A stretch of 64,000 nucleotides of DNA from Candidatus Eiseniibacteriota bacterium (GCA_034440375.1 JAWXBZ010000105.1:2269-66268); one strand, 5' to 3'; counted from the first letter of the stretch, positions 21,069 through 47,815 are shown. The notes: generated from the sequence alone by a model not told the origin. Translations and numbers: made by a program.

Positions 21069-24000
21069 ATGGCCGGAACACGTTTTAATGTCGTCGATGC
21101 GCGCCTGGCGCGCCCGAGATTGCCGCAGGTGCTGGAGCGTAGCCGGCTCCTCGATCAGATCCGTACCGGCCTTCTTGAATTTCCCCTGACACTGATCACG
21201 GCCGGCGCCGGCTACGGGAAAACCACCCTCATGGCGTCCGCGGCCGAACTCAACCCGGACGGCACCCTCTGGTACTCCCTCGGCGAGGAGGATGCCGACC
21301 TCACGCGATTCCTGCAGCACATCGCCGCGGCGCTCCAACGTCGCAATCGGCGGCATGGCCGGGGCTTGAGCGCCCTCCTGGGCGAAGGGGCGGTGGGTGC
21401 CCGATCGGCCACGGCCGCGGCCGGAGCGTTGCTGAACGACTTCGAGAGGATTCGCGAACCGCTGATCCTGGCCATCGACGATCTTCACCTGGTGAGCGGC
21501 TCGACCGAAATCAGCCAGTTCCTGGAAACGCTGGTCGAGAACAATCGCACCCTTGTCCACCTGATGCTGGCCACCCGGACCGAACCACCGCTTCCACTCG
21601 GCCGATTACGGGCAAGGCGAATGATATTCGAGCTGGGTTCCGCGGATCTGGCGTTCACGTCGGACGAGATGCGCTCACTTCTCGAGGAAGTCCATCATCG
21701 CCCCGTGTCCGAATCGGATCTGGAGTTTCTCACCCGATTCACGGAAGGATGGGTCACGCCGATCCAGCTGGCGCTTCAGGCGGGTCGCACGCTGGCTCCC
21801 CAGGACTTGCCGCGAGCGCTGGAGCGAGCCATGGCCTCCGGCGCGACGCTCCATGACTATCTGGCCGTCGAGATCCTGGATCGACAGTCGCCCGAATGGC
21901 GACGCTGGATCCTGGAGAGTTCGCCCTTCGAGGAGATCGAGCCCGATCTGCTTCGGTCGGTCCTTGGTGAGTCGGATCCGGAAGGACGCCTGCGCGAGCT
22001 GCTGCGAAAGAGCCTGATTCAGGCGTTTGAGAGTGATTCCGGGATCGTGTACCGGTACCACACGCTCCTGCGTGATCTGTTCATGCGGCGATTTCGCGCG
22101 GAGCTGCCGGAGGCCGATCGTGAAAAGCTCCACACGTCGGCAGCGGCCTGGTTTCGACGCCGGGGCGATCTGGTCGCGGCGGCACGGCAGCTGGCCTTCC
22201 TCGAGGATCGGACGGCGCTGGCGGAGTTTCTTCGCGCCGAGGCCCTGACGCTGCTCGACTCGGGGCAGTACCAGGCCCTGGCCCACTGGTTGGAACAGTT
22301 ACCCCCCGGGCTGCTTGACGAAGACCCCTGGCTCCGGTTGCGCCGGGGCGATGCCCGCCACTATCTCGGCGACTGGCCGGGCGCCGAGCTTGACTACGAA
22401 CGGGCCCAGGCCCTCTTCCAGGATCAGGGAGACACGAGCGGCGAAGCCTGGACGACCCTTGGCCTCGCGCGACTCTGGAATCTTCGGGGTCAATCCCGAC
22501 GGGCCGTGGAGGAAGGCGAGGCGGCTTTGGGCACGCTCACCGACTCGGGCGATCGCTCGTCGGAAGAGCTGGAGGTTCGGCTATTGAAGGTCGTTTCCGG
22601 TGCCCATTACTACCTGGGGCAGTATGCGGACGCCATTCGCCGACTCGATCGACTGGAGGAACTGGCACGAGGGCACGCGGAGCGACAGGCCGTCGTCTGG
22701 AACAATCGCGCGGTGGTGCACGCCAGCCAGGGCAACTTTCCGGCCGCTGCCGCGGCCTTTGAAAAGGGATTGCGGCGTCCCGGCGCCCGACAATCGCCGC
22801 GGGCCGCGCTTCACCTGTCGAATCTCGGACTCCTGCTGAACGAAATGGGGGATCCGGAGCGTGCCCGGCCGCTCTTCGATGAGGCGCTCCGTCGAGCCCG
22901 GCGCTGGCAGAATCGGAGTCACATCCTCTCGGCGCTGCTCGGGCAGGCGCACCTGAACTATCGGTTGGGAAACATGGAGGCGTGTCTTGCGCGCCTGCGG
23001 GAGGCGGATGAGCTCAACGAGGAGCTTCGGATCCCGCTCCTCAAGTCCGATGCCCTGGCCCTCCGATCGCGCGTCCTGGCAGAGGCCGGCCAGTTTGCGG
23101 CGGCGCGCGAGCTGCTGCGGAGCGGGCTTGCCGCCTACGGCCCGGCCACGCGCGATTCGCACTGGCTGCTGTACCGGGTGGAGGATGCCGTGCTCGACCT
23201 TCGTGCCGGACGGTTGGAGGAAGCCTATGCCGCCCTCACGGAACTGCGTCCAGTGGCCTTCGAACTCGAGGCACTCTTTCCCCGGATGCGACTTCTCTTC
23301 CACCGCGGCGAGGCGGCGCGCCAGCTGGGGCTCGATTCCGCCGAAGAGGAAATGTCCGAAGCCCTCGGCCTCGGCCGATCACTCGGATATGACGCCTTTC
23401 TGCGGGCCGAATTTCGGCGCGATACGGCGCCCTTCTTCTACCTTCTGCGGCGAGGCCGGGAATGCGAGTTCATCGCCCGGCTGGCAGCGGGCGCCGGCTC
23501 GACGCTCGAGCTGGAGATTCTCCAGATGGCCGGGGAGGAGTCGCTGCCGCCCGAAGCCGGACGCGCCATTCTTCAAATCCTGGGTGAAATCGGCGGTCCC
23601 TCAAGCCATCGGCGCATCAGTGCGTCCGCCTGGGCCGCGGACGGAGCGCTGGTCCGCTCGGCGCGCGCGGCCCTGGAGGCCATCGAACGGCGGCACCCCG
23701 AAAGCCGGACGCTGAAGTCCTCAGGCCTCCCTGGCCTGCGCCTGACAACGCTCGGCCCGCTGCACCTCTTTGGACCTCTCGGCGAGATCGAGCCGGCGCG
23801 GTGGCGGTCACAGCGGGCCCTGTCAATCTTCCTCTACCTGGCCATGCGGGGCGGGCGCGGGGTGCCCCGGGATCGCCTGGTCGAACTCTTCTGGCCGGGA
23901 CGGCAGCGGCGCAGTGCCCAGGGCAATTTTCATCCGACTCTCTCCTACATCCGGGGCGCCCTCCGCGACGTCAGCGAGGGTCAGGTCGTGGTCGTCCGGA

Positions 24001-24476
24001 ATGCGCTGTACCAGCTCGATCCCGACCTCCTCCTGACAATTGATGCCCATCGCTTCGAGGCCCTGGCTGTTGAAGGACGCACGAGGACCAAACCGGCGGA
24101 CCGGATCAAGACGCTGGAGGAGGCGGTAGCCCTGTATCAGGGCGATTTCCTGGATGGCCGCGATGAGCCCTGGACGGACGAAATCCGCACCCGACTGGCA
24201 CTTGGCTTCGAAAATGTGCTGGCGGCGCTGGCGGCGCTGCTGGTCCAGGGCAACGAGCCAGCCCGGGCCATTCCCGTCTGCCGGCGCCTCCTGGACCGGA
24301 GCCCCTACCGGGAAGAGGTTCACGTCCGCCTGATGGGGTGCTACAATCTGATTGGCGATCGTCATGCAATACTCGAGCATTACCGACGACTGACGCGCCT
24401 GCTTCGCGAGGACCTGGGATCCGAGCCGCTCCCGGAAACGACTCGCTCGTACGAATCCTTGATTGCCGCAACTTAA
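21069..24476 (+). CDS. Large ATP-dependent transcriptional regulator: MalT-like N-terminal P-loop ATPase, TPR-like repeat region and a C-terminal OmpR-type winged helix plus BTAD (SARP-type) module
   Basis: N-terminus RLARPRLPQVLERSRLLDQIRTGLLEFPLTLITAGAGYGKTTL resembles the MalT N-terminus, with a Walker B at LILAIDDLH. The C-terminal 250 aa has a wHTH (LRLTTLGPLHLFG...RALSIFLYLA...) followed by a BTAD (AVALYQGDFLDG...RLMGCYNLIGDRHAILEHYRRL). Confidence 0.7.
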   Translation: MAGTRFNVVDARLARPRLPQVLERSRLLDQIRTGLLEFPLTLITAGAGYGKTTLMASAAELNPDGTLWYSLGEEDADLTRFLQHIAAALQRRNRRHGRGLSALLGEGAVGARSATAAAGALLNDFERIREPLILAIDDLHLVSGSTEISQFLETLVENNRTLVHLMLATRTEPPLPLGRLRARRMIFELGSADLAFTSDEMRSLLEEVHHRPVSESDLEFLTRFTEGWVTPIQLALQAGRTLAPQDLPRALERAMASGATLHDYLAVEILDRQSPEWRRWILESSPFEEIEPDLLRSVLGESDPEGRLRELLRKSLIQAFESDSGIVYRYHTLLRDLFMRRFRAELPEADREKLHTSAAAWFRRRGDLVAAARQLAFLEDRTALAEFLRAEALTLLDSGQYQALAHWLEQLPPGLLDEDPWLRLRRGDARHYLGDWPGAELDYERAQALFQDQGDTSGEAWTTLGLARLWNLRGQSRRAVEEGEAALGTLTDSGDRSSEELEVRLLKVVSGAHYYLGQYADAIRRLDRLEELARGHAERQAVVWNNRAVVHASQGNFPAAAAAFEKGLRRPGARQSPRAALHLSNLGLLLNEMGDPERARPLFDEALRRARRWQNRSHILSALLGQAHLNYRLGNMEACLARLREADELNEELRIPLLKSDALALRSRVLAEAGQFAAARELLRSGLAAYGPATRDSHWLLYRVEDAVLDLRAGRLEEAYAALTELRPVAFELEALFPRMRLLFHRGEAARQLGLDSAEEEMSEALGLGRSLGYDAFLRAEFRRDTAPFFYLLRRGRECEFIARLAAGAGSTLELEILQMAGEESLPPEAGRAILQILGEIGGPSSHRRISASAWAADGALVRSARAALEAIERRHPESRTLKSSGLPGLRLTTLGPLHLFGPLGEIEPARWRSQRALSIFLYLAMRGGRGVPRDRLVELFWPGRQRRSAQGNFHPTLSYIRGALRDVSEGQVVVVRNALYQLDPDLLLTIDAHRFEALAVEGRTRTKPADRIKTLEEAVALYQGDFLDGRDEPWTDEIRTRLALGFENVLAALAALLVQGNEPARAIPVCRRLLDRSPYREEVHVRLMGCYNLIGDRHAILEHYRRLTRLLREDLGSEPLPETTRSYESLIAAT

Positions 24477-24488
24477 GGTGTCTAAAGG

Positions 24489-27062
24489 ATGAGATCGGGC
24501 AACGGCCGGACCGTGACCAGAATCCAGATTCCATTTCGCGCCATCGTCCTCCTGGCATGCGTCCTGCTGCCTGCTGCCCTTCCCGCCCCCGCAGTCGCCT
24601 CGGAACCCTGGATGTGGGATCAGGACGAGGACGGCATCGACGATCGACTGACGGCCACATTCCAGCAGGGGATTTCCGCCGCCTACGAGAATGGCGATCC
24701 GGAAGGCCGGCTGCGGTTCGACGTATCAACTCTGAACAACGCGCTCCAGTACGGCGGCTACATCCTGTATGACCACCCGCCGACCACGCTTGACAGCCTG
24801 GCCCTGGCAGGCGCCGGCGCCGAGGTCATCACGCGGTTCATCTCGGTGCCCTACATCCGCGTGCGGGCACTCTACCCGAGCCTGGTCGCCATTGCCGCCC
24901 AACCCGGCGTGGAGCGCGTCGAAGCGGTGACGCTGATGTTCCCCACCAACTGGAGGACCACCGGTGCCGTCGGCATCCGAGGTGGCGGAAGCGGCGCGGC
25001 TCCGGCACTTCACGAACTCGGTGGCCCCACCGGCAGTGGCTCGGTCGTGGCGATTCTCGATACGGGAATCAATGACACGCCGATCGGTGCCTATCCCGGC
25101 CATTCCGACATTGCCGGAAAAGTACTGGGGGGCAGCTCCTACTCCGGACCCGGCCCACTCGGTTACACGAACTGGGGATCCAGCGTCAATCCGGCCCAGT
25201 CGACGCCCGGCCTGTCGAGCTACCACGCCACCCACGTCGCGGGGACCATCGCCGGAGCCGGCCGCGACCGAACATTTGGCGGCATGGCGCCCGACGCGCG
25301 ACTGGTCGACGTCAAGGTGCTGGATGACTCTGGAACGGGGTACGGCCTGGCGGAGGGGCTTGAGTGGTGTCTCCAGAACCGGACCCGCGTCTGGGACCCC
25401 ACGCACACGGGCATCGACGTCATCAACCTGAGTCTCACCTCGATCGATCCCTCGGACGGTCAGGATTGTGTCTGCCGGCTGGTCAATGCCGCCGCCGCCA
25501 GTGGAATCGTTGTCGTGGCCGCCGCCGGCAATGATGGTCGTTGTAAATTCATCCCCGCGCCAGGTGCCGCGGATCAGGCCATCACCGTCGGTGCCCTCGA
25601 TCTGGATGTCGCATCGGCATCGAGCCGGCCGGCGCTCGCCACCTTTTCCAACGACGGTCCGCGAAACGACGACCTGGATGGCGGTCACGCCGACGAACTG
25701 AAACCCGACCTGGTGGCACCGGGCACCCAGATCGCCGCCGCCTGGGGCGCCCCGCTCGGCACGGGCCAGGGTTGGCGCCGGAGCAGCGGGACGAGCATGG
25801 CGGCTGCCACCGTTTCGGGCGTGGTGGCCCTGCTTCGCGAGACCAGCCCCACCGCGTCGCCCGATCAGATCCGAGAGATACTCCGCCGGACGGCCCGGCA
25901 CCGGACCGACACCACCCTCGGTTGTTCCATCGGCGCCGATCCGTACGGGATCGAGCCGGACTGGCGGGCCGGCTTCGGCTTCGGCGAACTGGATGCCCTC
26001 GCCGCCTGGGAAGAGCTGGTTCATGAGACAACCACCCAGTATGTAAACCTGTCAGCGGAGTTCCAGGCCGGTTCGGGTGAGATCGAATTCGCCTGGACCA
26101 CGCAGCGGGAGTCCGGAACCACCAGTTTCCTGGTCGAGCGGGCCGATGATCTGGGCGGCGCACCGGGAACATTCACGCCGGTTTCGCCGGCTGTTCCGGC
26201 GGTCGGCTTTTCCAATCTCGCCCTGGGCAACCGGACGACCTATCTCTGGTCCGACCCGGTGCCGGCCGGTCGCAAATTCTGGTACCGGGCGCGTACGCTG
26301 GGCGGCCCCACGACCATATCGTCGTCGATCCCGGCTCGAAGCGAGGACCCCATAGGGCGTGCGGAGATCACCTTCTGGCACAACCGCCCGGAACTCGATT
26401 GGACGATGCAGTTCGGTTCCGGTCCCTGGATTGCCCCGCCGGATTGGAGCTCACCCCTGGCGATCGACGCGGACCTGAACTCCGCAGCACCCTTGCCCAG
26501 CGCCGATCCCGAGGACAAGTACCAGGGGATCCTGGTTCGATCCCTCTATGCCAGCGACATCCCCGCGTGGCTCCTGCCTCCGTCTGCATCCCACCCCTGG
26601 TGGTTCGAAACCCTGGAAGGCAACTCGCCCGATCATTCGGGGCTGGTCACCGACTTCCGAATTGTGGTGGGGATGACTCTGTACCAGTCGTCAGACCCGA
26701 TGCCACAGTTGACCATCGAGGGTTCGCCCACCGTTGTTGTCATCCCGACGATCACCATCTCGGGGACGATGGCCAATGGGGCACCGGACGCCGGGCCCCG
26801 TTGGCTGCGCGTGCGGGTCAACCCGGCCCGTGGCCCGGTTCAACTGAACCTTCCGCCTGGCAGCGATGCCTCGACCCTGACCATTCTTGATATCCAGGGA
26901 CGCATCGTGCGCCGCTTGCCGATTCCGGCTACGGCTGGTGAGTCCGTCGTCACCTGGGACGGGAGCAATGAGTCCGGCGAGGAGACGCCCTCCGGCCGCT
27001 ATTTCGCTCGGCTCGACGATGGCACCACGCGACAGGTTGTGGGCGTGGTCCGGATTCGCTGA
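24489..27062 (+). CDS. Secreted S8-family serine peptidase (subtilisin-like) with a C-terminal T9SS type-A/FlgD-Ig-like domain
   Basis: Signal peptide; catalytic triad motifs VVAILDTGIND (Asp), HATHVAGTIAG (His) and SGTSMAAATVSGVVALL (Ser); C-terminal tail TLTILDIQGRIVRRL...SGRYFARL.... Confidence 0.8.
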   Translation: MRSGNGRTVTRIQIPFRAIVLLACVLLPAALPAPAVASEPWMWDQDEDGIDDRLTATFQQGISAAYENGDPEGRLRFDVSTLNNALQYGGYILYDHPPTTLDSLALAGAGAEVITRFISVPYIRVRALYPSLVAIAAQPGVERVEAVTLMFPTNWRTTGAVGIRGGGSGAAPALHELGGPTGSGSVVAILDTGINDTPIGAYPGHSDIAGKVLGGSSYSGPGPLGYTNWGSSVNPAQSTPGLSSYHATHVAGTIAGAGRDRTFGGMAPDARLVDVKVLDDSGTGYGLAEGLEWCLQNRTRVWDPTHTGIDVINLSLTSIDPSDGQDCVCRLVNAAAASGIVVVAAAGNDGRCKFIPAPGAADQAITVGALDLDVASASSRPALATFSNDGPRNDDLDGGHADELKPDLVAPGTQIAAAWGAPLGTGQGWRRSSGTSMAAATVSGVVALLRETSPTASPDQIREILRRTARHRTDTTLGCSIGADPYGIEPDWRAGFGFGELDALAAWEELVHETTTQYVNLSAEFQAGSGEIEFAWTTQRESGTTSFLVERADDLGGAPGTFTPVSPAVPAVGFSNLALGNRTTYLWSDPVPAGRKFWYRARTLGGPTTISSSIPARSEDPIGRAEITFWHNRPELDWTMQFGSGPWIAPPDWSSPLAIDADLNSAAPLPSADPEDKYQGILVRSLYASDIPAWLLPPSASHPWWFETLEGNSPDHSGLVTDFRIVVGMTLYQSSDPMPQLTIEGSPTVVVIPTITISGTMANGAPDAGPRWLRVRVNPARGPVQLNLPPGSDASTLTILDIQGRIVRRLPIPATAGESVVTWDGSNESGEETPSGRYFARLDDGTTRQVVGVVRIR

Positions 27063-27184
27063 TCAAACGAACCTGGCTGTTGCTACCCCTCCTGGATGCA
27101 TGAACGGATCCATGTTCAATCATTTTATGTAAGTTAATTGTTTTCAACAAGATGTGGCCTTCCGGCTTGAATTAAATCCCGGTT

Positions 27185-27206
27185 ACTCAATACCCACTCA
27201 ATACCC
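27185..27206 (+). promoter_or_regulatory. Perfect 11-bp tandem direct repeat ACTCAATACCC x2 in an AT-richer intergenic region
   Basis: Read directly from the sequence. It lies about 75 bp upstream of the ATG at 27282. Direct repeats with one-helical-turn periodicity are the usual binding-site architecture for OmpR/SARP-type winged-helix regulators, established for Streptomyces SARPs. Confidence 0.4.
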
Positions 27207-27281
27207 CCCCGACAAACTTCCTCCTGTCAGTCACCCAGAGCCGGATGGCTGGTCCGATGGCCCCACCGAGGAGGTTTCAAG

Positions 27282-27854
27282 ATGCATCGCTTGACGTGCA
27301 AGGCGAGTCGCGCCGCCCAAATCATCCCACTGGTCCTGGTGGCCGGGGCGATGGCGCTGTCGATTCAAGCATTTCGATCCGGATCAACCGACAACTCCGG
27401 AGTGACGCCCGCCCTTGTCACTCCGAATTACGAAGTCTCGACCTGCAACCTGCGTCATCCGATCGAAGCCCGGCTGGTGCCGCAGGGCGCAATGACCCGG
27501 GGCGGCACGGTGCGCGTGGCGCTCGAGGTTGAGGCCACGGTGTCCCTTTCCGCCGCCGAGGCCCGAATCCTCTCCAGCGGCGGGGCCACGATTCTCGGAC
27601 GTCAGCGGGCCGAACTCGGAACACTCGACGCCGGTGATGTCCGGCGCATCGAGTTCACCCTGCGTCTTCCGGAGAACGGCCGGCGGTTCGTTCTACAAGT
27701 TCTGACCACCGGCGAATCAACCACCGGCCCGATGAATCGTCTGGCGATGCTGAACATCCTGCCCGACGGCCCGGCCGATCCGGGGCAGGTCGTGACAACC
27801 CCCACCGGCGAATCGATCCGCCAGTACGCCTCGAGCGGGCGGAGGATCAACTGA
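27282..27854 (+). CDS. Hypothetical secreted protein
   Basis: Signal peptide (IIPLVLVAGAMALSIQA). The stop overlaps the downstream ATG (TGATG), indicating translational coupling with the large exoprotein gene. Confidence 0.45.
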   Translation: MHRLTCKASRAAQIIPLVLVAGAMALSIQAFRSGSTDNSGVTPALVTPNYEVSTCNLRHPIEARLVPQGAMTRGGTVRVALEVEATVSLSAAEARILSSGGATILGRQRAELGTLDAGDVRRIEFTLRLPENGRRFVLQVLTTGESTTGPMNRLAMLNILPDGPADPGQVVTTPTGESIRQYASSGRRIN

Positions 27855-30800
27855 TGCGCCTCCTCGATCGCCTCCGTCATGGGAAGGGCTGTCCGAACAA
27901 GTCCTTCGCCTACCTCATCGCCCTGATCATCCTGATCACGCTCGTCGCGACCCTCGTGCTCACCTCCTTCGTCACGTCCGCCGAGGCCGCCTTCACGGCC
28001 AGCGGCCGCTTCCTGTATGCCGACAAGCTCTGGGACAAGGACGGCTACACGGGTCAGGAACAGAACCTGCCCATCCGCCACGCGCGGGTCGAAATCGTCG
28101 ATGTTCCGTCGCTCCAGGTGATCGGATCCGGCGTTGCCGACGCCGACGGCAATTACTCGATCACGGTCACGCCACTGGCGCCGATCGTGCCGGTCAACGT
28201 GGTAGCTCGTGTCCTGACCGACGGGCGCACCGCCGGCTACGAAATTCGTATCGTCGACGAACTGACGCGCGGCCTGGGTGAGCCCGCCGTCATCGGCAAC
28301 ATTCACGCCGTCCTCAACGATCCGGTCCTGAATCACAACCAGGCCCAGCCGCTCAATTTCGGCACGTTTCTACTCGAGGATCCGGACGGCACGGGTGTGG
28401 CCCAGGCCTTCAACATCTTTGACTGTGCCGTGGATTACTTCGACTGGATGGCCCAGCCGGGCCTCTTGAACCGGCTGCCGAATGCCACCGAATACGTCAT
28501 TTTTGCGTGGTCGCCGACCAGCTCCAATGAGGGTTCCAACTACAGCGGCCACGCAATTCTTCTGGCATCCCCAGGCCAGGGGAACGACACGGACGCCTGG
28601 TCCGACACGGTCATCCTCCATGAAACCGGCCACTGGTTCGATGACTTTTTCTCGAGGTCGGACAATCCTGGCGGCCCGCACGGGATAGGTGACAACAACG
28701 CCAATGTGCTGCTGGCCTATGGTGAAGGTGTGGCCACGTTTCACTGCGCCAAGGTCCGCAAGCTCCGGGCCACCACCCGCCTGAACCTGATCGCACAGCC
28801 GATCGACAGCCACGTCAGCATCTACGGCGACCTGATGATTCCGCCCGATTCGATGATGGCCGGCGGCCTGTCGTTCTCCTACGACTTCGAGACCGGCGTC
28901 GTCTTCCAGCCGGGCCTGCCGCCGGGTGGCTTCTTTATCGGCCAGCGGGGCAGCGCCAACGAAACAAACGTTACCTCGGCCCAGTGGGACCTGGTGGACG
29001 ACGCAGGAACCCCGGATGAAACCCCGGGCGTCGACGACGATCAGGTTGGTGTCAACGATGCCATCCCGTTCGCGATCGAGCGCATCTGGTTGCCCGGCCT
29101 CCCAGCCGGCAATGCGGTCACGATCGAGGACTATTACCAGGGGTGGTACGCCCAGAACGGCGCCAATTTCATGCGCGCCGGCGTGGACGACATCTTCTTC
29201 AACCTGTCGCTGATGGAGTTCTACCCCGACTCGTACGAGCCGGATGGCACCGCGGCGCAGGCAACTTCGATTGCGCCACTGGCCTACTCCGTGACGACTG
29301 GCGCGCACCTGGTCATCAGCGAGATCGACCTCGGCGCCCAGGATGCCGTGGAGGTCTTCAACCCGTCCGACGCCGCGATCGACATGACCGGCTGGCAGAT
29401 CCAGGTGTACGTCAATGGCGACGCCGCCCCGGTGGTCAGCCGCATCTACACGTTTCCAGCCTTCACGCTCGATCCGGGTGAGGCCGTGGCGCTGCTCGAG
29501 CGCGGCGATCCGCTGAACAACGGCGCGCACCACCTCTACGGCGGCAGCACCGTGCCCAACTCGTGGAACGCCTCATGGAACTACGGCCTCGACGGGGCCG
29601 TCGTCCTGCGGGATGCGTCCAGCCAGGCCGTGGACTTTGTGAGCTGGCGACATGGGAACGGCACCCCGAACAGCACCCCGGTACCGTCGGGCACGGCCTT
29701 CACCGGCCTCCTCGACAGTCCCCCAGCGGCATCCAACCTGGCGCGTGACATCAACGGCACGGATACCGATGCCGCGGCCGATTTCACCCCAGAGGACGGC
29801 ACGCTGGCCTCGGCCAACGGCACCTTCTCACGGCATCAGACTCTGTTCGACCTGGGCGATGCCGACCTGATCCGTTTCGACGCCGTGGCCGGCATGCGCT
29901 ACGGCTTCGAGGTCCGGGCATTTTTCAGCGCCAGCGATCCGTTCGTCGAGCTCCTCTCACCGACGGGCGCGATCCTCGGGTCGAACGACAACTCGGACCC
30001 CGGCATCCGGGACGCCCGCATCGATCTCTTCGCCGGAACGACCGGCACTTACTATCTCAAAGTGCGCCACGTCGGTCCGCACACCGACTGGGCGGCCTAC
30101 AACGTGGCGGCCTTCCAGCGTCCGCCGAGCACGACGCTGCTGGCTCCTGGTGGCATCACGGCCACGGCCCAGAATGTCAACAACATCAACGATCCGGTCC
30201 ACCTGGACTGGCTGAACGGGGCGCCCTACGACTCGGTGCGGCTGTATCGCAACGGGGCGCTGCTCCAGACACTCCCGGGCTCCTCGACCAGCTACGACGA
30301 CCTGGCCGACCGCGGTGTGTATACCTATGAAGTTTCGGGTGTCGGCGGGTTGAGCGAAACCGCCAGGGCCTCGACCAACGAATACGCCGGTGTCATCGGC
30401 TGCTTTGTTTCCGAGGACTTCGAGCAGGGGAACGCCAACGACTGGATCAGCCCCCCCAACACATGGGGCGTCACGGCGCTGGCGGAGGGGGGCGTGTTCG
30501 GTTACACGGACAGCCCGGTCGGCACCTCTCGCGGTTGTGCCGGCGTCCTGGAAAGTTGCACCACCTCCACCCCGACCGTCCTCCGAGTCCCGGTTCGGCT
30601 CCCGCCCAATTCGCACCTCATGTTCGACCAGATCTGCATCACCGAACATTGCGCACCGACGCCATGCGATCTCGGCATCGTCGAGATCTCCACGGACGAG
30701 GGAACCAGCTGGACGGAAATCGCCCGCTACGATCAGGCCAGCGATCCGGCCTGGACCGACAATGTGGCTGATCCGACCGACTGGCGGCCCGCGGATCTCT

Positions 30801-31237
30801 CACTGGACGATTTCATCGGACAGCAGATCCTGGTCCGTTTCCGGGTTCAGACAGATCCGCTGGCGGAGCTGGACGGCTGGTATCTCGACAATGTCCGGGT
30901 CAACGAGGGTGATTGCACGCTGGCCGCCGTCGGGCCGGCGGCCGGTGCCGCGGGCCTCACCGGTTTGATGGCACCGTATCCCAATCCAATGACCGGCACC
31001 GCCCGGTTCGCGTTCCAACTGGCCACACCGGTGACAAACGTCTCGATGTCGGTTTATGACATCTCGGGTCGCCTCGTCCGCCGTGAGTCACTCGGCCATC
31101 TCGATACCGGCACGCACGCCTGGCTCTGGGACGGTCGCGGCGATTCCGGAAGCGAGACAGCCAACGGTGTCTACTTTGCCCGGCTCGAAGCCGCCGGCAA
31201 ATCGTTCACGCAGAAGGTTCTTAAAGTCACGCGGTAG
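27854..31237 (+). CDS. Large secreted multidomain protein: HExxH zincin-like segment, lamin-tail domain, pre-peptidase C-terminal domain and a C-terminal T9SS type-A/FlgD-Ig-like domain
   Basis: N-terminal TM/signal anchor. VILHETGHWFDD is an HExxH motif. HLVISEIDLGAQDAVEVFNPSDAAIDMTGWQIQV is a lamin-tail domain. DADLIRFDAVAGMRYGFEV...GTYYLKVRH is a PPC-like domain. C-terminal tail VSMSVYDISGRLVRR...NGVYFARL. Confidence 0.6.
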   Translation: MRLLDRLRHGKGCPNKSFAYLIALIILITLVATLVLTSFVTSAEAAFTASGRFLYADKLWDKDGYTGQEQNLPIRHARVEIVDVPSLQVIGSGVADADGNYSITVTPLAPIVPVNVVARVLTDGRTAGYEIRIVDELTRGLGEPAVIGNIHAVLNDPVLNHNQAQPLNFGTFLLEDPDGTGVAQAFNIFDCAVDYFDWMAQPGLLNRLPNATEYVIFAWSPTSSNEGSNYSGHAILLASPGQGNDTDAWSDTVILHETGHWFDDFFSRSDNPGGPHGIGDNNANVLLAYGEGVATFHCAKVRKLRATTRLNLIAQPIDSHVSIYGDLMIPPDSMMAGGLSFSYDFETGVVFQPGLPPGGFFIGQRGSANETNVTSAQWDLVDDAGTPDETPGVDDDQVGVNDAIPFAIERIWLPGLPAGNAVTIEDYYQGWYAQNGANFMRAGVDDIFFNLSLMEFYPDSYEPDGTAAQATSIAPLAYSVTTGAHLVISEIDLGAQDAVEVFNPSDAAIDMTGWQIQVYVNGDAAPVVSRIYTFPAFTLDPGEAVALLERGDPLNNGAHHLYGGSTVPNSWNASWNYGLDGAVVLRDASSQAVDFVSWRHGNGTPNSTPVPSGTAFTGLLDSPPAASNLARDINGTDTDAAADFTPEDGTLASANGTFSRHQTLFDLGDADLIRFDAVAGMRYGFEVRAFFSASDPFVELLSPTGAILGSNDNSDPGIRDARIDLFAGTTGTYYLKVRHVGPHTDWAAYNVAAFQRPPSTTLLAPGGITATAQNVNNINDPVHLDWLNGAPYDSVRLYRNGALLQTLPGSSTSYDDLADRGVYTYEVSGVGGLSETARASTNEYAGVIGCFVSEDFEQGNANDWISPPNTWGVTALAEGGVFGYTDSPVGTSRGCAGVLESCTTSTPTVLRVPVRLPPNSHLMFDQICITEHCAPTPCDLGIVEISTDEGTSWTEIARYDQASDPAWTDNVADPTDWRPADLSLDDFIGQQILVRFRVQTDPLAELDGWYLDNVRVNEGDCTLAAVGPAAGAAGLTGLMAPYPNPMTGTARFAFQLATPVTNVSMSVYDISGRLVRRESLGHLDTGTHAWLWDGRGDSGSETANGVYFARLEAAGKSFTQKVLKVTR

Positions 31238-31288
31238 GTTTCACCTCGCGACGTCGGGGGTCTGACGGTCACGGCTCTGGCCGGCAGG

Positions 31289-31309
31289 CCCCCGGCTCGC
31301 GGGGGTTTA
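31289..31309. terminator. GC hairpin (CCCCCG-GCTCG-CGGGGG) followed by TTTA, lying between convergent genes
   Basis: Read from the sequence. The hairpin has a 6-bp stem and the T tract is weak. Confidence 0.3.
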
Positions 31310-31924
31310 TCGAGATGGCGAAACTGGGTGGAAAACAAGGATGTCGGCGGCATCCCTGAGCAGGTCAATCCGTTGGACCTCGACCCGAAGCGCCGCCATT
31401 CCCGTTTTCAAATGGATGTCGGCCAGAAGCTTTGCCTCGTTGCCCGGCTGCAGCAATTCGAGATGGTCATAGATCATCGGCGTCGACTGCAGCGAGTCCT
31501 TCCAGGGGCGCAACTCGATGGCAGCCACCATCCCGACAACGACTCCGTTAACGACGAGTATCTCCATCATGCTGACACTACCGTTGGCAACCCCGTTAAG
31601 AAGGCCGAGTCCAATGACGATGAACAGGTAGGTGAGATCTCGAATGCGGATCTGTTCCGTGCGATATCGCAGGATGCCGAACACGCCGAACAGCGCCAGC
31701 GCAAAACCGAGCTCGGTCGGCACCTTGCGTAGCAGAAGACACAGGAAGAGCGTCACCACGTTGAACAGGTAGTAGGTGAATACGTACTCACGATTTCGGT
31801 ACAGGCGGTAGTAGATCAGGCGAATCACGACGCTCGCGAACGCAAGATCAAGCACAAACCGCACCAGCAACTTGCTCATTTCGGACCAATCCGCGAAAAT
31901 ATCACCACCAGGAATCGTGTTCAT
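31307..31924 (-). CDS. DUF4956-domain membrane protein
   Basis: Multi-TM protein (YVFTYYLFNVVTLFLCLLL, LGFALALFGVFGILRYRTE) with a C-terminal soluble region. It overlaps the VTC gene stop by 4 bp. Confidence 0.55.
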   Translation of the reverse strand: MNTIPGGDIFADWSEMSKLLVRFVLDLAFASVVIRLIYYRLYRNREYVFTYYLFNVVTLFLCLLLRKVPTELGFALALFGVFGILRYRTEQIRIRDLTYLFIVIGLGLLNGVANGSVSMMEILVVNGVVVGMVAAIELRPWKDSLQSTPMIYDHLELLQPGNEAKLLADIHLKTGMAALRVEVQRIDLLRDAADILVFHPVSPSR

Positions 31925-34677: not shown

Positions 34678-35313
34678 ATGTCCGTGAAAAGGATTGACGT
34701 CGGCGCAAAGACCGGGCACCCGGAAACGGGTGAGCTGCTGGATCAGCTTGAAGGACGGCTGGCTTTGGACCGACTCCGGGAAGTTGCGACGCACGTGCTG
34801 GCCTGCCGACGCTGCCAAAGGTCGATTGAGGAGCTGAAGCGCGTAACCAACTCGCTCGGCGCATCGACACTGGAGTCGCCCCCGGAGTGGCTGGCGAACT
34901 GGGCGGACGATCGGCCGCGGGATCAGCCGAAAAAGGTTCCGAAGGGTCTGATGCCAATCCTGAGGCTGGTCCTCGATTCATGGCGTCTCGAACCGCTGGG
35001 GGCTCGCGGGGTCGCCCCTTCCAGCCGCCGTCTCCTCTATCGGGCCGGCTCGGTCGATCTGGATATTGAACTAGACCTGGGACGCGCGGGCCGGACGGCC
35101 ACGGTTCGGGGCCAGATTCTTGATGCCACCGTGACCGGTGGGCGACAGTTCTCGGAAGGGCACGTTCGGTTACTCGCCGGCCGGCGGCTCGTGGTCAAGG
35201 TGCCGCTCGGCACCCGGGGAGACTTCCGGCTGAGCGACGTGCCCCGCCGCGTCTACCACCTGAATATCGCGGCGGCCGGATTCCGGGTTCGAGTCGATTC
35301 ATTCGAGATATGA
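34678..35313 (+). CDS. Putative zinc-binding (ZAS-type) anti-sigma factor, soluble
   Basis: H-x3-C-x2-C motif (HVLACRRCQ) near the N-terminus, immediately downstream of the ECF sigma gene. No evident TM helix. The stop overlaps the next gene's start (ATGA). Confidence 0.55.
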   Translation: MSVKRIDVGAKTGHPETGELLDQLEGRLALDRLREVATHVLACRRCQRSIEELKRVTNSLGASTLESPPEWLANWADDRPRDQPKKVPKGLMPILRLVLDSWRLEPLGARGVAPSSRRLLYRAGSVDLDIELDLGRAGRTATVRGQILDATVTGGRQFSEGHVRLLAGRRLVVKVPLGTRGDFRLSDVPRRVYHLNIAAAGFRVRVDSFEI

Positions 35314-38111
35314 CCCTGTCCGTTCGCGTCGGCGCGCTGGAGCGCGACCTCTTGAACAGCCGGGGTGATGCCATCCGACCGGCCCATTTCAAAAAATACC
35401 TGGCCTCGCTCCAGCGGACCACGCGTCGCGATCCATTGAAAGCTGAGTCCGCATCGAGCCGGGCCATGCTGGTTGCCCGGGCCGTGGGCGATGGCGTCGC
35501 GCTGGCGCATCTGCAGCGGGCACGGGCCCACGCGCGTCGCGCGAGTAACCGATGGCCGGAGGCGGCCTCGGACTATCGCGCGGCTCTCAAGCGATTTCAG
35601 GATCTGGATCGGGCGGACGAATGCGCGTTCACCCGTATCGGCCTGATTGATGCCCTCATGTACCTCGGGCGCTACGAGGATGCCCTGTTTGAGGCGCACG
35701 CGGCGCGACGAACGGTCCAAAGGCTTGGCGATCCGATTCGCGGCGCCCGCATCGAAAACAACATCGGAAACATTCACCATCGGCGCGATGACCTCGAAAC
35801 GGCCATCCAATGGTATGACCGCGCGCGGCGGACATTTCGGCGGCGGCACGACGACTCCGCGCTGGCATTGGTTGAGTTCAACCGCGGAAACGTGCTCGGG
35901 CCGATGGGGCGCACCGCCGAGGCGCGGATCGCCTACGAAACCGCCGGGGCCATTTTTTCCCGGCAGGGCTTCACGGACCGGACGGCCCAGGTGCGGTACA
36001 ACCTGGCCTACCTTCGCTTTCTCGAAAACCGGTTGCCGGAGGCTCTCGAGGAGTTGGAGCAGGTCCGCGTGACCTTTCAGGCGACGGGCGATGAACGTCA
36101 CCTCGGCCTGACGCGACTCGATGAGTCTGAGATCCTTCTCCGCCTGAATCTTTGGGATGACGCCGGAGAAGCGGCTACCGAAGCCATCCGCCGGCTGAAG
36201 GCACTCGGTCTCGACTACGAGCGGGCGAAAGCCCTCACGTTCCTGGCCCTGGCCACGGCCCGTCGAGGCGATCCGTCGGAGGCGGCGGGCCTGCTGGACT
36301 CGGCCCGCGAACTTTTCAAGACGGAAAAAAACCGCTGGTGGGTCGGTGAGACCAGCCTTCAGCTGGCCCGATTGGCTGTCGGTCGAGGTGCCTGGTCAGA
36401 GGCACGGCTGGAAGCGCAGCGGGCACGCCGGACGTTCGCCCGAAGAATATCCAACGAAGCGCTGGGGCGGGCCCTGCTGATCGAAGCGGAGGCGGCCCGC
36501 GGAGCCGGCCGCAGGGCCCAAGCCGGGCGCACGCTGGAGGCGGCGCTTCAGGCCGCCCGGCGGAGTCGCTCGCCCTGGCTCACGGCGGAAGTTCGCGAGT
36601 TGGCGGGACTCCTGGCACTTGACCGGGGCGATGCTGCGACGGCACGGCGCCACTTCAACCAGGCCATCAAGGCCATTGAACAGCTTCGTGCATTGCTCTC
36701 CGGTGACGACCTCCGGGCGGGGTTTCTGCGCGAGCGGGATCGCCCCTATCTGGAATTGGCCCGTCTCGAACTCGTGGCCGGCCGGCCGCGACAGGCGTTC
36801 GAACTATTCGAACGCGGGCGGGCGCGGGCCCTGCTCGACCTCCTGACGGACATGCCGGCGGGAAAGCGGGCACCAGGCAAGGGTCGCAGGAAATTGGAGA
36901 CACGAGCCAGGCACCTGCTGTCGGAATTGGGGCGCCGTTATCACGAAGACGACGTCGCCGAATCGTCCGGCCAACGACAGTGGACCAGCGCCGGAATATC
37001 CGAAGCGCGGGAATCGCTCGAGGCGGAAGCGGCCCGGCTTCTGCGTCGCGTGGATCAAAGCCCTGGTTCGATCGCCGGGCGGCGTCCCGGTCTCGGCGAG
37101 GTGCAACGTCTCCTTCGTCCCGGCGAAACCCTTCTTTCTTTCCACGAAATCGGCGGCCGGGTCGGGGTATTTCGGATTACCCGGACCCGCTTCGACTCGG
37201 TGCCGGACCTGGCCGGCGCGGCCGACATCGAGAGGCTGGCGGAATCGCTGCGATTTCAGTGGGGGCGGTTCCGCTTCGATGCGGAATTACTGGCACGCCA
37301 CGGCGCTCAGTTGGAAAGCATGGCCCGGAGCGATCTTCGGCGCCTTCATGAGCTCTTGATCTCACCCTTTGATTCTCCCTCGGAGAAGGGGCCGCTGATC
37401 ATCGTTCCGACGGCTGGACTTCGCTCGGTCCCTTTTTCCGCACTCGACGACGGAACGGCGTGTCTGGCCCGGAGGCGGGCCATCGTCGTGTCGCCCAGTG
37501 CGGCGGTCTGGAGCCGTTGCCGGACCCACGAGACGGGCGATGGGGGCCTTGAGAGGGCCGTGCTCATTGGTATCCCCGACAAGCGGGCTCCGCAGGTTGC
37601 CGACGAAATACGGGAGTTGGCCGGGCGGCTACCGGGTGCCCGGGTATTCCTCGGTTCGGAGGCAACGGCGCACCAATTTCTGGCATCCCTGCCGAAGGCC
37701 TCGATCTTGCATGTAGCCACGCATGGCATGTTCCGTACCGATCGCCCGAACCTGTCGGGAGTCCGACTGTCCGATCGATGGGTCTACGGCTATGAAGTTG
37801 CCCGGGGAATGATGCGGGCCCGCCTGGTCGTGCTATCGGCCTGCGTGACCGGGCTTTCCGCCGCCTGGGCCGGCGGCGATTGGATGGGCCTGGCCCGATC
37901 CTTTCTGACCGCGGGAGCCCGCCGGGTTCTGGTAGGCCTCTGGGATGTCGATGACGATGCCACCCGGCAATTGATGGGACATTTTTACCGCTTTCTGATC
38001 AACGAAGGGCATCTGCCGGCGGAAGCGCTGGCCCGGGCCCAGGCCGAAATGGCGTCCAGCGGCTGGCACCCGTACTACTGGTCCGGCTTTTCGCTCATGG
38101 GAGATCTGTGA
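35310..38111 (+). CDS. TPR-repeat CHAT-domain protein (caspase-like His/Cys peptidase)
   Basis: About 600 aa of TPR-like repeats followed by a CHAT domain (LIIVPTAGLRSVPFSAL...ASILHVATHGMFR...ARLVVLSACVTGL...WSGF) with a His/Cys dyad. Confidence 0.75.
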   Translation: MTLSVRVGALERDLLNSRGDAIRPAHFKKYLASLQRTTRRDPLKAESASSRAMLVARAVGDGVALAHLQRARAHARRASNRWPEAASDYRAALKRFQDLDRADECAFTRIGLIDALMYLGRYEDALFEAHAARRTVQRLGDPIRGARIENNIGNIHHRRDDLETAIQWYDRARRTFRRRHDDSALALVEFNRGNVLGPMGRTAEARIAYETAGAIFSRQGFTDRTAQVRYNLAYLRFLENRLPEALEELEQVRVTFQATGDERHLGLTRLDESEILLRLNLWDDAGEAATEAIRRLKALGLDYERAKALTFLALATARRGDPSEAAGLLDSARELFKTEKNRWWVGETSLQLARLAVGRGAWSEARLEAQRARRTFARRISNEALGRALLIEAEAARGAGRRAQAGRTLEAALQAARRSRSPWLTAEVRELAGLLALDRGDAATARRHFNQAIKAIEQLRALLSGDDLRAGFLRERDRPYLELARLELVAGRPRQAFELFERGRARALLDLLTDMPAGKRAPGKGRRKLETRARHLLSELGRRYHEDDVAESSGQRQWTSAGISEARESLEAEAARLLRRVDQSPGSIAGRRPGLGEVQRLLRPGETLLSFHEIGGRVGVFRITRTRFDSVPDLAGAADIERLAESLRFQWGRFRFDAELLARHGAQLESMARSDLRRLHELLISPFDSPSEKGPLIIVPTAGLRSVPFSALDDGTACLARRRAIVVSPSAAVWSRCRTHETGDGGLERAVLIGIPDKRAPQVADEIRELAGRLPGARVFLGSEATAHQFLASLPKASILHVATHGMFRTDRPNLSGVRLSDRWVYGYEVARGMMRARLVVLSACVTGLSAAWAGGDWMGLARSFLTAGARRVLVGLWDVDDDATRQLMGHFYRFLINEGHLPAEALARAQAEMASSGWHPYYWSGFSLMGDL

Positions 38112-38204
38112 TGCGCCGTGACGATTGGGCTGGCCACCGGCCGGGGGGGGCCTGTACTCTTTGATTCCCGCCAAGGACTCATGCCGCCGAAAGGGAATTC
38201 TGTC

Positions 38205-47797: not shown

Positions 47798-47815
47798 AGT
47801 TGTCCACACATCAAG

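What the first reader, a model, noticed from the sequence alone, without database searches (positions are those of the whole stretch)
27282..31237. Translationally coupled pair: unknown exoprotein plus a 1127-aa exoprotein combining an HExxH motif, a lamin-tail domain, a PPC domain and a T9SS-type C-terminal domain
The large protein combines a zincin-like HETGH motif with a lamin-tail domain (an Ig-like fold seen in bacterial nucleic-acid- and polymer-binding exoproteins) and a pre-peptidase C-terminal domain. I do not recognise this combination as a described peptidase family. It lies immediately downstream of the SARP-type regulator and subtilase, so it may be a protease or glycan-targeting exoenzyme co-regulated with them.
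Basis: partly seen in the sequence, partly recalled or inferred. Interest (0 to 1): 0.55.

Follow-up and report, generated by a model that had tools for sequence, protein, structure and literature searches.

The report
Orphan thermolysin-like protease plus partner
The two overlapping genes encode a secreted zinc protease that has the thermolysin fold but belongs to no catalogued family, plus a small exported partner protein found directly upstream of it in bacteria from many phyla; the partner probably keeps the protease inactive or helps it fold.

Summary
ORFs 27282-27854 (190 aa) and 27854-31237 (1127 aa) overlap by one base (TGATG), and each has a Shine-Dalgarno sequence.

**Protease**
- HETGH (residues 256-260) is not a chance motif. 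H256 and H260 are invariant and E257 is 99% conserved in 95 homologous genes, as are H276, E291-G292, Y324 and E370.
- No Pfam, NCBIfam, PDB-sequence or profile-profile method links the catalytic domain to any family. hhalign against an M4 profile gives 4% probability.
- The family is nevertheless large: about 5,800 clusters at 50% identity, named in databases only by accessory domains.
- Domain order: signal peptide, transthyretin-like sandwich, catalytic domain, a PPC domain split by a nested lamin-tail domain, a MAM-like domain, and a T9SS C-terminal domain.

**Partner**
- It has an N-terminal hydrophobic anchor, a linker and an Ig-like sandwich, with no family match.
- It sits immediately upstream of 77 of 95 family genes, almost always overlapping or within 6 nt, and is duplicated together with the protease.

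**Interpretation**
Best reading is a propeptide-less thermolysin-fold protease with a cognate latency or folding factor, working like the Tannerella KLIKK-peptidase/potempin pairs. The partner's role is inferred, not shown.

The parts
27268..27274 (+). Shine-Dalgarno GAGGAGG, 7 nt upstream of the small ORF's ATG
   Evidence: Read directly from the sequence.
27282..27854 (+). Partner gene: a 190-aa exported protein, identical to NCBI MDZ4804702.1 (hypothetical protein, Candidatus Eisenbacteria)
   Evidence: ORF. Identity to P0024. Homologues lie immediately upstream of the protease gene in 77 of 95 cases. No Pfam, NCBIfam or PDB-sequence match.
27309..27377 (+). N-terminal hydrophobic helix of the partner (residues 10-32): a Sec signal peptide or uncleaved membrane anchor. 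'SIQA' could be a cleavage site. There is no lipobox.
   Evidence: AF2 model helix 10-32. 69 of 77 partner homologues have such a segment and 5 of 77 match a loose lipobox pattern.
27462..27758 (+). Ig-like beta-sandwich of the partner (residues 61-159)
27786..27824 (+). C-terminal beta-hairpin of the partner (residues 169-181), preceded by the clade-conserved 'PDGPADPG' segment
27841..27856 (+). Coupling junction: GGAGGA Shine-Dalgarno inside the partner gene's 3' end, then TGATG (stop and start share one base)
   Evidence: The same kind of junction occurs in 72 homologous pairs: 31 overlaps of 4 nt, 13 of 1 nt, and nearly all the rest gaps of 1-6 nt.
27854..31237 (+). 1127-aa multidomain exoprotease, identical to NCBI MDZ4804703.1 ('lamin tail domain-containing protein')
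27854..27988 (+). Signal peptide (residues 1-45, ending 'TSAEA')
   Evidence: Read from the sequence. Homologues begin with short signal peptides followed directly by the conserved 'FTxSGxFxYxDR'.
27989..28228 (+). Transthyretin/CarboxypepD_reg-like beta-sandwich (residues ~46-125). G64, R75 and G99 are invariant; G51, Y55, D57 and G67 are at least 96% conserved.
28229..29218 (+). Thermolysin-fold catalytic domain (residues ~126-455)
28619..28633 (+). HETGH (H256, E257, H260): two zinc ligands and the catalytic base
   Evidence: H256 and H260 are 100% conserved and E257 99% in 95 genes; all are invariant in A1.
28661..28726 (+). 'SDNPGGPH' loop with H276 (98% conserved), then the 'YGEG' helix with E291-G292 (100%). 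E291 is the inferred third zinc ligand; H276 is the inferred transition-state-stabilising residue or alternative ligand.
   Evidence: Conservation. Helix positions. The E291-to-E166 correspondence appears only in a low-confidence extended hhalign alignment, so it is inferred.
29219..29278 (+). First strand of the PPC domain ('FYPDSYEPDGTAAQATSI'; D459 and E462 are 95% conserved)
29294..29650 (+). Lamin-tail domain (residues 481-599), nested inside the PPC domain
   Evidence: PF00932, E 7.6e-16. Nesting shown by the LTD-deleted alignment.
29810..30124 (+). Remainder of the divergent PPC domain (residues 653-757)
   Evidence: PF04151 below threshold (E 0.088). BLASTP E 4e-7 to the PPC domain of P0009. 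Orthologues carry PF04151 hits.
30668..30904 (+). InhA-like MAM / choice-of-anchor-J-like domain (residues 939-1017, partial model match)
   Evidence: PF20773, E 3.8e-7 and 2.7e-8. NCBIfam matches to the equivalent part of sortase-dependent M36 peptidases.
30977..31225 (+). T9SS type A C-terminal sorting domain (residues 1042-1124)
   Evidence: TIGR04183, 41.7 bits against a cutoff of 23. PF18962 and PF13860 also match.

Best explanation
The large gene encodes a secreted zinc metalloendopeptidase. Its catalytic domain has the two-lobed thermolysin (gluzincin) fold but belongs to a large, uncatalogued sequence family.

Inferred catalytic machinery: zinc is held by H256 and H260 and, by inference, E291. 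E257 is the catalytic base. H276 and/or Y324 stabilise the transition state.

Inferred route: the protein enters the periplasm through Sec and leaves the cell through a type IX secretion C-terminal domain. The PPC, nested LTD and MAM-like modules would bind polymeric substrates or the cell surface.

Unlike M4 and M36 enzymes it has no N-terminal propeptide. Instead, a translationally coupled upstream gene makes a roughly 1:1 partner: a Sec-exported, probably membrane-tethered Ig-like protein. My committed mechanism is that this partner binds its cognate protease in the periplasm and keeps it latent by blocking the active-site cleft until export. It may also assist folding, and it stays behind when the protease leaves. 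That would be functionally equivalent to the potempin inhibitors of the T9SS KLIKK-peptidases.

Shown: the genes, their coupling, the fold, the conserved catalytic residues, and the conserved pairing. Inferred: zinc-ligand assignment, proteolytic activity, physical binding, and inhibition.
For: Protease:
- HExxH, H276, E291-G292, Y324 and E370 are 98-100% conserved in 95 genes from many phyla.
- The AF2 model has pLDDT 85 and pTM 0.88.

Secretion:
- N-terminal signal peptide and a TIGR04183 C-terminal domain above cutoff.

No propeptide:
- The conserved transthyretin-like domain starts right after the signal peptide.
- There are no FTP or PepSY hits.

Partner:
- A homologue lies immediately upstream on the same strand in 77 of 95 family genes. 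That rises to about 80 of the 91 with upstream sequence once the weaker hits are added.
- The association also holds when searched from the partner side: the loci recovered with DNA from 2 of 3 partner look-ups are each followed by a family protease, and the third, which returned no DNA, also has an adjacent gene overlapping its stop.
- Junctions are 4-nt or 1-nt overlaps in 44 of 72 pairs and gaps of 6 nt or less in nearly all the others.
- Seven loci duplicate the two genes as a unit. The partner copies diverge faster (26-37% identity) than the protease copies (41-49%).
- The partner has a hydrophobic N-terminus in 69 of 77 cases, an Ig-like sandwich fold, and no conserved polar residues, so it is not an enzyme.
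- Pairing persists in phyla and family members that lack a T9SS C-terminal domain. The partner is therefore tied to the catalytic domain, not to the secretion route.

Precedent: KLIKK-peptidase genes are preceded by small ORFs whose stops overlap or lie 5 bp or less from the peptidase start. Those ORFs encode specific inhibitors (PMC9890683).
Against: - No binding or inhibition was tested, and no complex could be modelled with the tools available.
- The partner's fold is a generic Ig-like sandwich. It is unlike potempins (OB fold or 8-stranded barrels) and unlike any known metalloprotease inhibitor. It also lacks the potempin lipobox.
- About 10 family genes with adequate upstream sequence have no detectable partner.
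- The same genetic evidence fits a folding chaperone equally well.
- The zinc-ligand assignment rests on fold analogy.
- Whether this organism has T9SS machinery was not checked.
Confidence: 0.45

Rival explanations
1. The protease is as described, but the partner is mainly a folding factor. It would be a propeptide surrogate encoded in trans: a membrane-anchored steric chaperone comparable to the Lif foldases of secreted lipases. It would be needed to fold a thermolysin-type domain that lacks its own propeptide, with any inhibition only incidental.
For: - Characterised thermolysin-fold families (M4, M36) depend on FTP/PepSY propeptides for folding (established knowledge). This family has none.
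- The partner is encoded upstream and coupled, which is where a propeptide would sit after a gene split.
- Its layout of hydrophobic anchor, Pro/Ala/Ser-rich linker and periplasmic domain resembles Lif (my own knowledge).
- It is duplicated with its cognate protease.
Against: - The fold is an Ig-like sandwich. It is neither FTP/PepSY nor the helical Lif fold.
- The only apparent fusion of partner and protease (L020) looks like an assembly frameshift, because the protease keeps its own internal signal peptide.
- AF2 models the catalytic domain confidently on its own, although that says little about the folding pathway.
Confidence: 0.25
2. The partner is a non-regulatory subunit: a surface or membrane adaptor, or a substrate-binding subunit that works together with the active protease.
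For: - Ig-like, CARDB and MG-like sandwiches are common adhesion and binding modules.
- Tight translational coupling suits any heteromeric complex.
- The partner has a membrane-anchor-like N-terminus.
Against: - A Sec-anchored inner-membrane protein cannot accompany a T9SS-exported enzyme to the cell surface.
- The protease already carries its own binding modules (PPC, LTD, MAM).
- The partner has no conserved surface residues and evolves fast, which is more typical of inhibitor or immunity proteins.
Confidence: 0.15
3. The large protein is not a general protease. It would instead be a glycopeptidase or a polymer- or nucleic-acid-directed enzyme, or an inactive binding protein, with the HExxH domain serving another role.
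For: - The LTD occurs in extracellular nucleases such as ExeM (weak NCBIfam hit).
- One database fragment is named as a xylanase.
Against: - Every catalytic-type residue is conserved, so the domain is unlikely to be inactive.
- The minimal family members are only catalytic domain plus PPC, so LTD and MAM are lineage-specific add-ons.
- The xylanase name has no supporting domain hit.
Confidence: 0.07
4. The gene adjacency has no functional meaning, and the small ORF is an unrelated or spurious gene.
For: High-GC genomes contain many long spurious ORFs.
Against: - The protein family is conserved.
- It is modelled confidently as a folded domain.
- It is found upstream of the protease across many phyla with overlapping junctions.
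- The association is reciprocal.
Confidence: 0.02

Closest known systems
Thermolysin / pseudolysin (MEROPS family M4, clan MA(E))
   Same: - HExxH sits on the active-site helix, followed by a helix carrying an invariant Glu.
- Secreted enzyme, often followed by a PPC domain.
   Different: - 11-13% identity. No Peptidase_M4 or M4_C Pfam hit. Profile-profile probability is 2-4%, with only the HExxH helix aligned.
- 30 residues separate the second His from the Glu, against 19 in thermolysin. The extra loop carries the invariant DNPGGxH.
- No FTP/PepSY propeptide. Instead there is a conserved N-terminal transthyretin-like domain and a partner encoded by a separate gene.
Fungalysin-type peptidases (M36), including bacterial sortase- or T9SS-dependent M36 proteins
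   Same: - The C-terminal MAM-like domain and sorting signal resemble NCBIfam's T9SS-, myxosortase- and rhombosortase-dependent M36 architectures (weak hits).
- A 'GEG' motif surrounds the putative Glu ligand, similar to the M36 motif as I recall it from memory (a lead, not a test).
   Different: No Peptidase_M36 or FTP hit. The NCBIfam matches cover only the MAM and C-terminal sorting parts and fall far below the cutoffs.
KLIKK-peptidase / potempin system of Tannerella forsythia (PMC9890683)
   Same: - A T9SS-secreted peptidase gene, including one M4-type enzyme (forsilysin), sits immediately downstream of a small ORF with its own signal peptide.
- The small ORF's stop overlaps or lies 5 bp or less from the peptidase start.
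- Each peptidase has its own cognate small protein, and those small proteins diverge very fast.
   Different: - Potempins are 98-132-residue outer-membrane lipoproteins with OB or 8-stranded barrel folds, and are reported as unique to T. forsythia.
- This partner is about 160 residues when mature, has an Ig-like sandwich fold and no lipobox, and is spread over many phyla, including ones without a T9SS C-terminal domain on the protease.
- Inhibition is not demonstrated here.
Operon-encoded bacterial metalloprotease inhibitors (serralysin inhibitors AprI/Inh; emfourin with protealysin)
   Same: A small dedicated protein is co-transcribed with a zinc protease to protect the producer. PMC9890683 cites the serralysin inhibitors, and PMC9505478 mentions emfourin.
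   Different: In those systems the inhibitor gene lies downstream and the folds are different. Emfourin and protealysin are intracellular. No sequence or fold match to this partner was found.
Lipase-specific foldases (Lif)
   Same: An inner-membrane anchor, flexible linker and periplasmic domain, encoded in an operon with the secreted enzyme that it folds (my own knowledge).
   Different: Lif is helical and acts on lipases exported by T2SS. No similarity was detected here.

Membership tests
Peptidase family M4 (thermolysin) | Sequence match to the Peptidase_M4 / Peptidase_M4_C profiles, or detectable profile homology | tested here: not met
   No Pfam or NCBIfam hit in the window protein or in the more than 40 relatives scanned. 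hhalign against thermolysin gives 2%, and a 284-sequence family profile against an M4 profile gives 4.4%.
Peptidase family M4 (thermolysin) | Two-lobed thermolysin fold with HExxH on the active-site helix | tested here: met
   [not shown]
Peptidase family M4 (thermolysin) | Third zinc ligand Glu on the next helix (HExxH...E), plus transition-state His/Tyr | tested here: inconclusive
   E291 is invariant and lies on the helix following HExxH. H276 and Y324 are also conserved. Coordinates could not be inspected, and the sequence alignment to E166 is not significant.
Peptidase family M4 (thermolysin) | N-terminal FTP/PepSY propeptide | tested here: not met
   No FTP or PepSY hits. The signal peptide is followed directly by the conserved transthyretin-like domain.
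Peptidase family M36 (fungalysin) | Match to the Peptidase_M36 profile or the NCBIfam M36 models at cutoff | tested here: not met
   [not shown]
Peptidase family M6 (immune inhibitor A) | Peptidase_M6 catalytic domain | tested here: not met
   Only the accessory InhA-like_MAM domain matches. A true M6 gene in L001 is recognised by Pfam while its neighbour, a homologue of this protein, is not.
KLIKK-peptidase/potempin-type pair | Small ORF immediately upstream whose stop overlaps or lies 5 bp or less from the peptidase start | tested here: met
   TGATG junction in the window. 44 of 72 homologous pairs overlap, and nearly all the others have gaps of 6 nt or less.
KLIKK-peptidase/potempin-type pair | The small protein is a lipoprotein (lipobox Cys) anchored to the outer membrane | tested here: not met
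   No lipobox in the window protein. A loose lipobox pattern matches only 5 of 77 homologues.
KLIKK-peptidase/potempin-type pair | The small protein has an OB-fold or 8-stranded up-and-down beta-barrel | tested here: not met
   [not shown]
KLIKK-peptidase/potempin-type pair | The small protein specifically inhibits the co-transcribed peptidase | not testable with these tools
   This needs biochemistry or complex modelling. Only indirect support exists: unit duplication and fast divergence.
T9SS type A cargo | C-terminal sorting domain matching TIGR04183 / PF18962 | tested here: met
   TIGR04183 scores 41.7 bits against a cutoff of 23, and PF18962 scores 28.7 against 27.
T9SS type A cargo | T9SS machinery (SprA/Sov, PorK-N, PorU/V) present in the same genome | not tested
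   None of the window ORFs scanned is a T9SS component. The rest of the genome was not available.
Lamin-tail domain (PF00932) | Profile match above the gathering score | tested here: met
   58.9 bits against 34.3, residues 481-599.
PPC / pre-peptidase C-terminal domain (PF04151) | Profile match above the gathering score | tested here: inconclusive
   14.1 bits against 25.9 in this protein. The region is homologous to PF04151-positive domains of relatives, and the domain is interrupted by the LTD.

The most novel reading that the evidence does not exclude
The pair may represent an ancient 'split zymogen' spread across many phyla. In this reading, a whole family of thermolysin-fold proteases (about 5,800 clusters at 50% identity) dispensed with the covalent propeptide. 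It relies instead on a separately encoded, membrane-tethered Ig-like protein that both folds and silences its cognate enzyme in the periplasm. That would be a new protease family together with a new inhibitor/foldase family. It would also generalise the supposedly Tannerella-specific peptidase/potempin logic to much of the uncultured bacterial world.
Probability: 0.25. Interest if true: 0.7.

Novelty: new variant of a known kind. Interest (0 to 1): 0.55.

Why it matters
- **A family for the catalogues.** It would add a large, currently unannotated family to the thermolysin clan. Databases name its members only by accessory domains ('lamin tail domain-containing protein', 'pre-peptidase', 'MopE-related', and one fragment wrongly as a xylanase). 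The proteolytic capacity of Eisenbacteria, Acidobacteriota, Planctomycetota and related soil and sediment lineages is therefore undercounted.
- **A question about propeptides.** The obligate, translationally coupled partner offers a testable answer to how a thermolysin-type enzyme can fold and stay harmless without one.
- **A possible new inhibitor scaffold.** If the partner is an inhibitor, it would be a new structural class of metalloprotease inhibitor.

Tried and rejected
- **Sequence routes to a known family all failed.** These were Pfam and NCBIfam on the window protein and more than 40 relatives, phmmer and a family profile against PDB sequences, and hhalign against thermolysin and against an M4 profile built from thermolysin plus eight plasmid-borne M4 genes. 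Only the HExxH helix aligns.
- **'Mycolysin_N (faint)' on the partner homologue in L004** was not reproduced by hmmscan at E up to 10. Dropped.
- **An apparent natural fusion of partner and protease in L020.** The junction is garbled and the protease keeps its own internal signal peptide. I judged it an assembly frameshift, not a Rosetta-stone fusion.
- **The partner as a T9SS-specific accessory.** Rejected, because the pairing persists in Planctomycetota, Nitrospinota and other members whose proteases lack a T9SS C-terminal domain.
- **A functional module with the SARP regulator and S8 subtilase.** These neighbours are conserved only in the four closest loci, and neighbours differ elsewhere.
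- **Polymorphic-toxin metallopeptidase.** Tox-MPTase3 hits were only E 0.015-0.08. Dropped.
- **Promoter and terminator scan** of 26900-31500 gave nothing above shuffled expectation in the intergenic regions.
- **Literature searches** found no description of this family.

Full report
**1. The observation**

The window carries two same-strand ORFs at exactly the reported coordinates: 27282-27854 (190 aa) and 27854-31237 (1127 aa). The small ORF's TGA stop shares its last base with the large ORF's ATG (TGATG). Each start codon has a strong Shine-Dalgarno sequence 7 nt upstream. Both proteins are identical to records from a Candidatus Eisenbacteria metagenome-assembled genome: MDZ4804702.1 ('hypothetical protein') and MDZ4804703.1 ('lamin tail domain-containing protein').

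Profile searches on the large protein gave the following:

| Domain | Residues | Result |
|---|---|---|
| LTD (PF00932) | 481-599 | E 7.6e-16 |
| T9SS type A sorting domain (TIGR04183) | 1042-1124 | 41.7 bits against a cutoff of 23 |
| PPC (PF04151) | 653-757 | below threshold, E 0.088 |

The PPC call is supported indirectly. The region is homologous to the PF04151-positive domain of relatives (BLASTP E 4e-7), and many orthologues with the same architecture carry the Pfam hit.

The PPC domain is also interrupted. Its conserved first strand ('YEPDGTAAQAT', around residue 460) lies before the LTD. A construct with residues ~471-650 removed aligns without a break across the junction to relatives that have an uninterrupted PPC (E down to 7e-15). 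The LTD is therefore a nested insertion.

**2. The HExxH region is a real catalytic domain of thermolysin fold**

Residues 1-480 match no Pfam or NCBIfam model. A search with residues 45-481 found 23 relatives. In their alignment H256, E257, G259 and H260 are invariant, together with D251, G274, E291-G292, E370, W378, D379 and D382. H276 is nearly invariant (numbering is the fragment position plus 44).

The same picture holds in 95 genes recovered from GTDB species representatives and other contigs. H256, H260, E291 and G292 are 100% conserved. E257 is 99%. H276, Y324 and E370 are 98%.

An AlphaFold2 model of residues 45-481 is confident (pLDDT 85, pTM 0.88).

| Method | Match | Score |
|---|---|---|
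| Foldseek | thermolysin | E 7e-6, TM-score 0.58-0.60 |

Foldseek also assigns the first ~80 residues to a transthyretin-like sandwich.

By analogy with thermolysin's architecture, the invariant E291 on the helix after the HExxH helix is the likely third zinc ligand. H276 lies in the intervening 'DNPGGxH' loop, where thermolysin has Tyr157.

**3. It is not a member of a catalogued family, yet the family is large**

- No Pfam or NCBIfam model hits the catalytic domain in more than 40 relatives scanned.
- A family profile finds nothing relevant among PDB sequences.
- hhalign of the family against thermolysin gives 2% probability.
- A deep 284-sequence profile against an M4 profile (thermolysin plus eight plasmid-borne M4 genes) gives 4.4%, with only the HExxH helix aligned.

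An exhaustive HMM search of 1.84 billion representative proteins nevertheless finds 5,774 clusters at E ≤ 1e-3 and 1,552 at E ≤ 1e-30.

Record titles place members in Eisenbacteria, Krumholzibacteriota, Latescibacterota, Acidobacteriota/Polarisedimenticolia, Planctomycetota, Gemmatimonadota, Verrucomicrobiia, Nitrospinota, Omnitrophota and others. All are metagenome-assembled genomes.

Source annotations name members only by accessory domains or as hypothetical. One fragment is called a xylanase.

The minimal architecture is signal peptide, transthyretin-like domain, catalytic domain and PPC, about 500 aa in total. LTD, MAM, MopE, TSP3, beta-helix and T9SS C-terminal modules are lineage-specific additions. 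There is no FTP/PepSY-type propeptide: the conserved transthyretin-like domain follows the signal peptide directly.

**4. The small ORF is a conserved, coupled partner**

In the first five homologous contigs inspected, a 176-202-aa gene with no Pfam family above a 'faint' hit sits immediately upstream of the protease gene. Its end overlaps the protease start in four of the five and lies 15 nt short of it in the fifth. These proteins are homologous to the window's small protein and form a family of their own, with no Pfam, NCBIfam or PDB-sequence match.

Evidence for the pairing:
- **Frequency.** With an iterated HMM, 77 of 95 family protease genes have a partner homologue ending at their start on the same strand. 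Four of the misses are at contig ends, and three more are recovered at weaker thresholds or in frame.
- **Reciprocity.** Of three look-ups starting from partner proteins, the two that returned DNA gave loci each followed by a gene matching the family profile with an HExxH motif; the third returned no DNA but shows an adjacent gene overlapping the partner's stop.
- **Junctions.** Of 72 junctions, 31 are ATGA/GTGA overlaps, 13 are TGATG-type overlaps, and nearly all the rest are gaps of 1-6 nt. I chose the start codon nearest the stop, which biases the gap estimates downward. The exact overlaps do not depend on that choice.
- **Unit duplication.** Seven loci carry the two-gene unit twice in tandem. 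Partner copies are 26-37% identical and protease copies 41-49%, so each protease keeps its own faster-evolving partner.
- **Independence from T9SS.** The pairing is retained where the protease has no T9SS C-terminal domain.

The partner's predicted structure has four parts:
- a hydrophobic helix (residues 10-32);
- a disordered Pro/Ala/Ser-rich linker;
- an Ig-like sandwich (residues 61-159, pLDDT mostly above 90);
- a C-terminal hairpin.

**5. Mechanism**

*Shown:* a conserved two-gene unit with roughly 1:1 coupled translation. One product is a Sec-exported thermolysin-fold domain with an intact catalytic signature and no propeptide. The other is a Sec-exported or Sec-anchored Ig-like protein specific to it.

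*Inferred:* the partner binds the protease in the periplasm.

I commit to a latency-factor model. The partner blocks the cleft of the newly folded enzyme until the enzyme is exported (here through its T9SS C-terminal domain), and the partner stays behind.

The closest precedent is the Tannerella forsythia KLIKK-peptidase/potempin system. There, T9SS peptidase genes, including an M4-type enzyme, are each preceded by a small ORF whose stop overlaps or lies 5 bp or less from the peptidase start. Each ORF's secreted product specifically inhibits only its own peptidase (PMC9890683).

This pair is not a member of that system. The partner is not a lipoprotein and has a different fold, and inhibition is untested.

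The main rival is a trans-acting propeptide surrogate or foldase. The arguments for it are that thermolysin-type enzymes normally need a propeptide, that the partner sits where a propeptide would be encoded, and that its anchor-linker-domain layout resembles Lif foldases (my own knowledge). The two roles are not mutually exclusive. The genetic evidence cannot separate them.

**6. Context**

The AAA/TPR/BTAD regulator (21069-24476) and the S8 subtilase with a FlgD_ig/T9SS-like tail (24489-27062) precede the pair here and in the four closest relatives that have upstream sequence (L006, L013, L015, L017). They do not precede it in the other loci, where neighbours vary.

A 219-nt AT-rich spacer separates the subtilase from the pair. 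No consensus promoter or terminator stands out there. Downstream, a convergent DUF4956 gene ends the unit. Co-regulation with the subtilase can be neither supported nor excluded.

**7. Verdict**

The finding is real and the zincin interpretation is correct. It can be sharpened to a thermolysin-fold, sequence-orphan metallopeptidase family with a nested LTD-in-PPC architecture in the Eisenbacteria clade.

The most interesting element is the conserved, translationally coupled partner gene. This is a new variant of known kinds (thermolysin-clan protease; operon-encoded protease partner), not a categorically new system. Interest is moderate at 0.55. It would rise to about 0.7 if the partner proves to be a new class of inhibitor or foldase replacing the propeptide across this large family.

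Noticed in passing
window 29219-30124: The lamin-tail domain is inserted inside the PPC domain, after its first strand, rather than lying beside it. The same nested arrangement is standard in more than 100 Eisenbacteria orthologue clusters. LTDs also occur after the catalytic domain in Acidobacteriota and Latescibacterota members.
   Followed up: yes
window 34678-39548: A small zf-HC2/CarboxypepD_reg protein (34678-35313) is followed by a 933-aa TPR+CHAT protein (35310-38111) and a second S8 subtilase (38118-39548). All are on the + strand and tightly packed. This could be another regulated protease module.
   Followed up: no
window 46013-51312: An Alginate_exp-like outer-membrane protein (46013-47797) is followed by two tandem paralogues (47816-49576 and 49573-51312) with CarboxypepD_reg repeats and FlgD_ig/T9SS-like tails.
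   Followed up: no
window 61897-63960 (-): An M13 (neprilysin-type) peptidase gene. Together with the two subtilases and the protease studied here, the window is rich in exported peptidases.
   Followed up: no
L001 2924-7123 (-): In the closest homologous contig, a 1399-aa M6 (InhA-type) peptidase with MAM and FlgD_ig domains lies divergently next to the partner-protease pair. Pfam recognises that M6 enzyme but not its neighbour.
   Followed up: partly
L059, L068, L070, L071, L073, L075, L081: Loci, mostly from Planctomycetota (L070's record gives no phylum), carry the partner-protease unit twice in tandem. L078 has partner-protease-protease, with no detectable partner for the second copy.
   Followed up: yes
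L003 8251-12965 (-): Topoisomerase VI A and B genes lie next to the pair in a 574-kb contig. The B subunit gene carries intein and LAGLIDADG homing-endonuclease domains.
   Followed up: no
L020 3221-7156: The partner domain and the protease lie in one stop-free frame in a long-read assembly. The junction translation is garbled and the protease keeps its own signal peptide, so this is probably an indel error and not a true fusion.
   Followed up: yes
cluster of window:27854-31234 (TPW16824.1): A 770-aa fragment of essentially this protein is deposited as 'glucuronoarabinoxylan endo-1,4-beta-xylanase, partial'. No domain evidence supports that name.
   Followed up: partly
window 27989-28228 and family-wide: The N-terminal transthyretin-like domain is as strongly conserved as the active site (G64, R75 and G99 at 100%; Y55 and D57 at 96% or more). 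This suggests an integral role, such as forming part of the cleft, binding calcium or docking the partner. That role could not be examined without model coordinates.
   Followed up: partly
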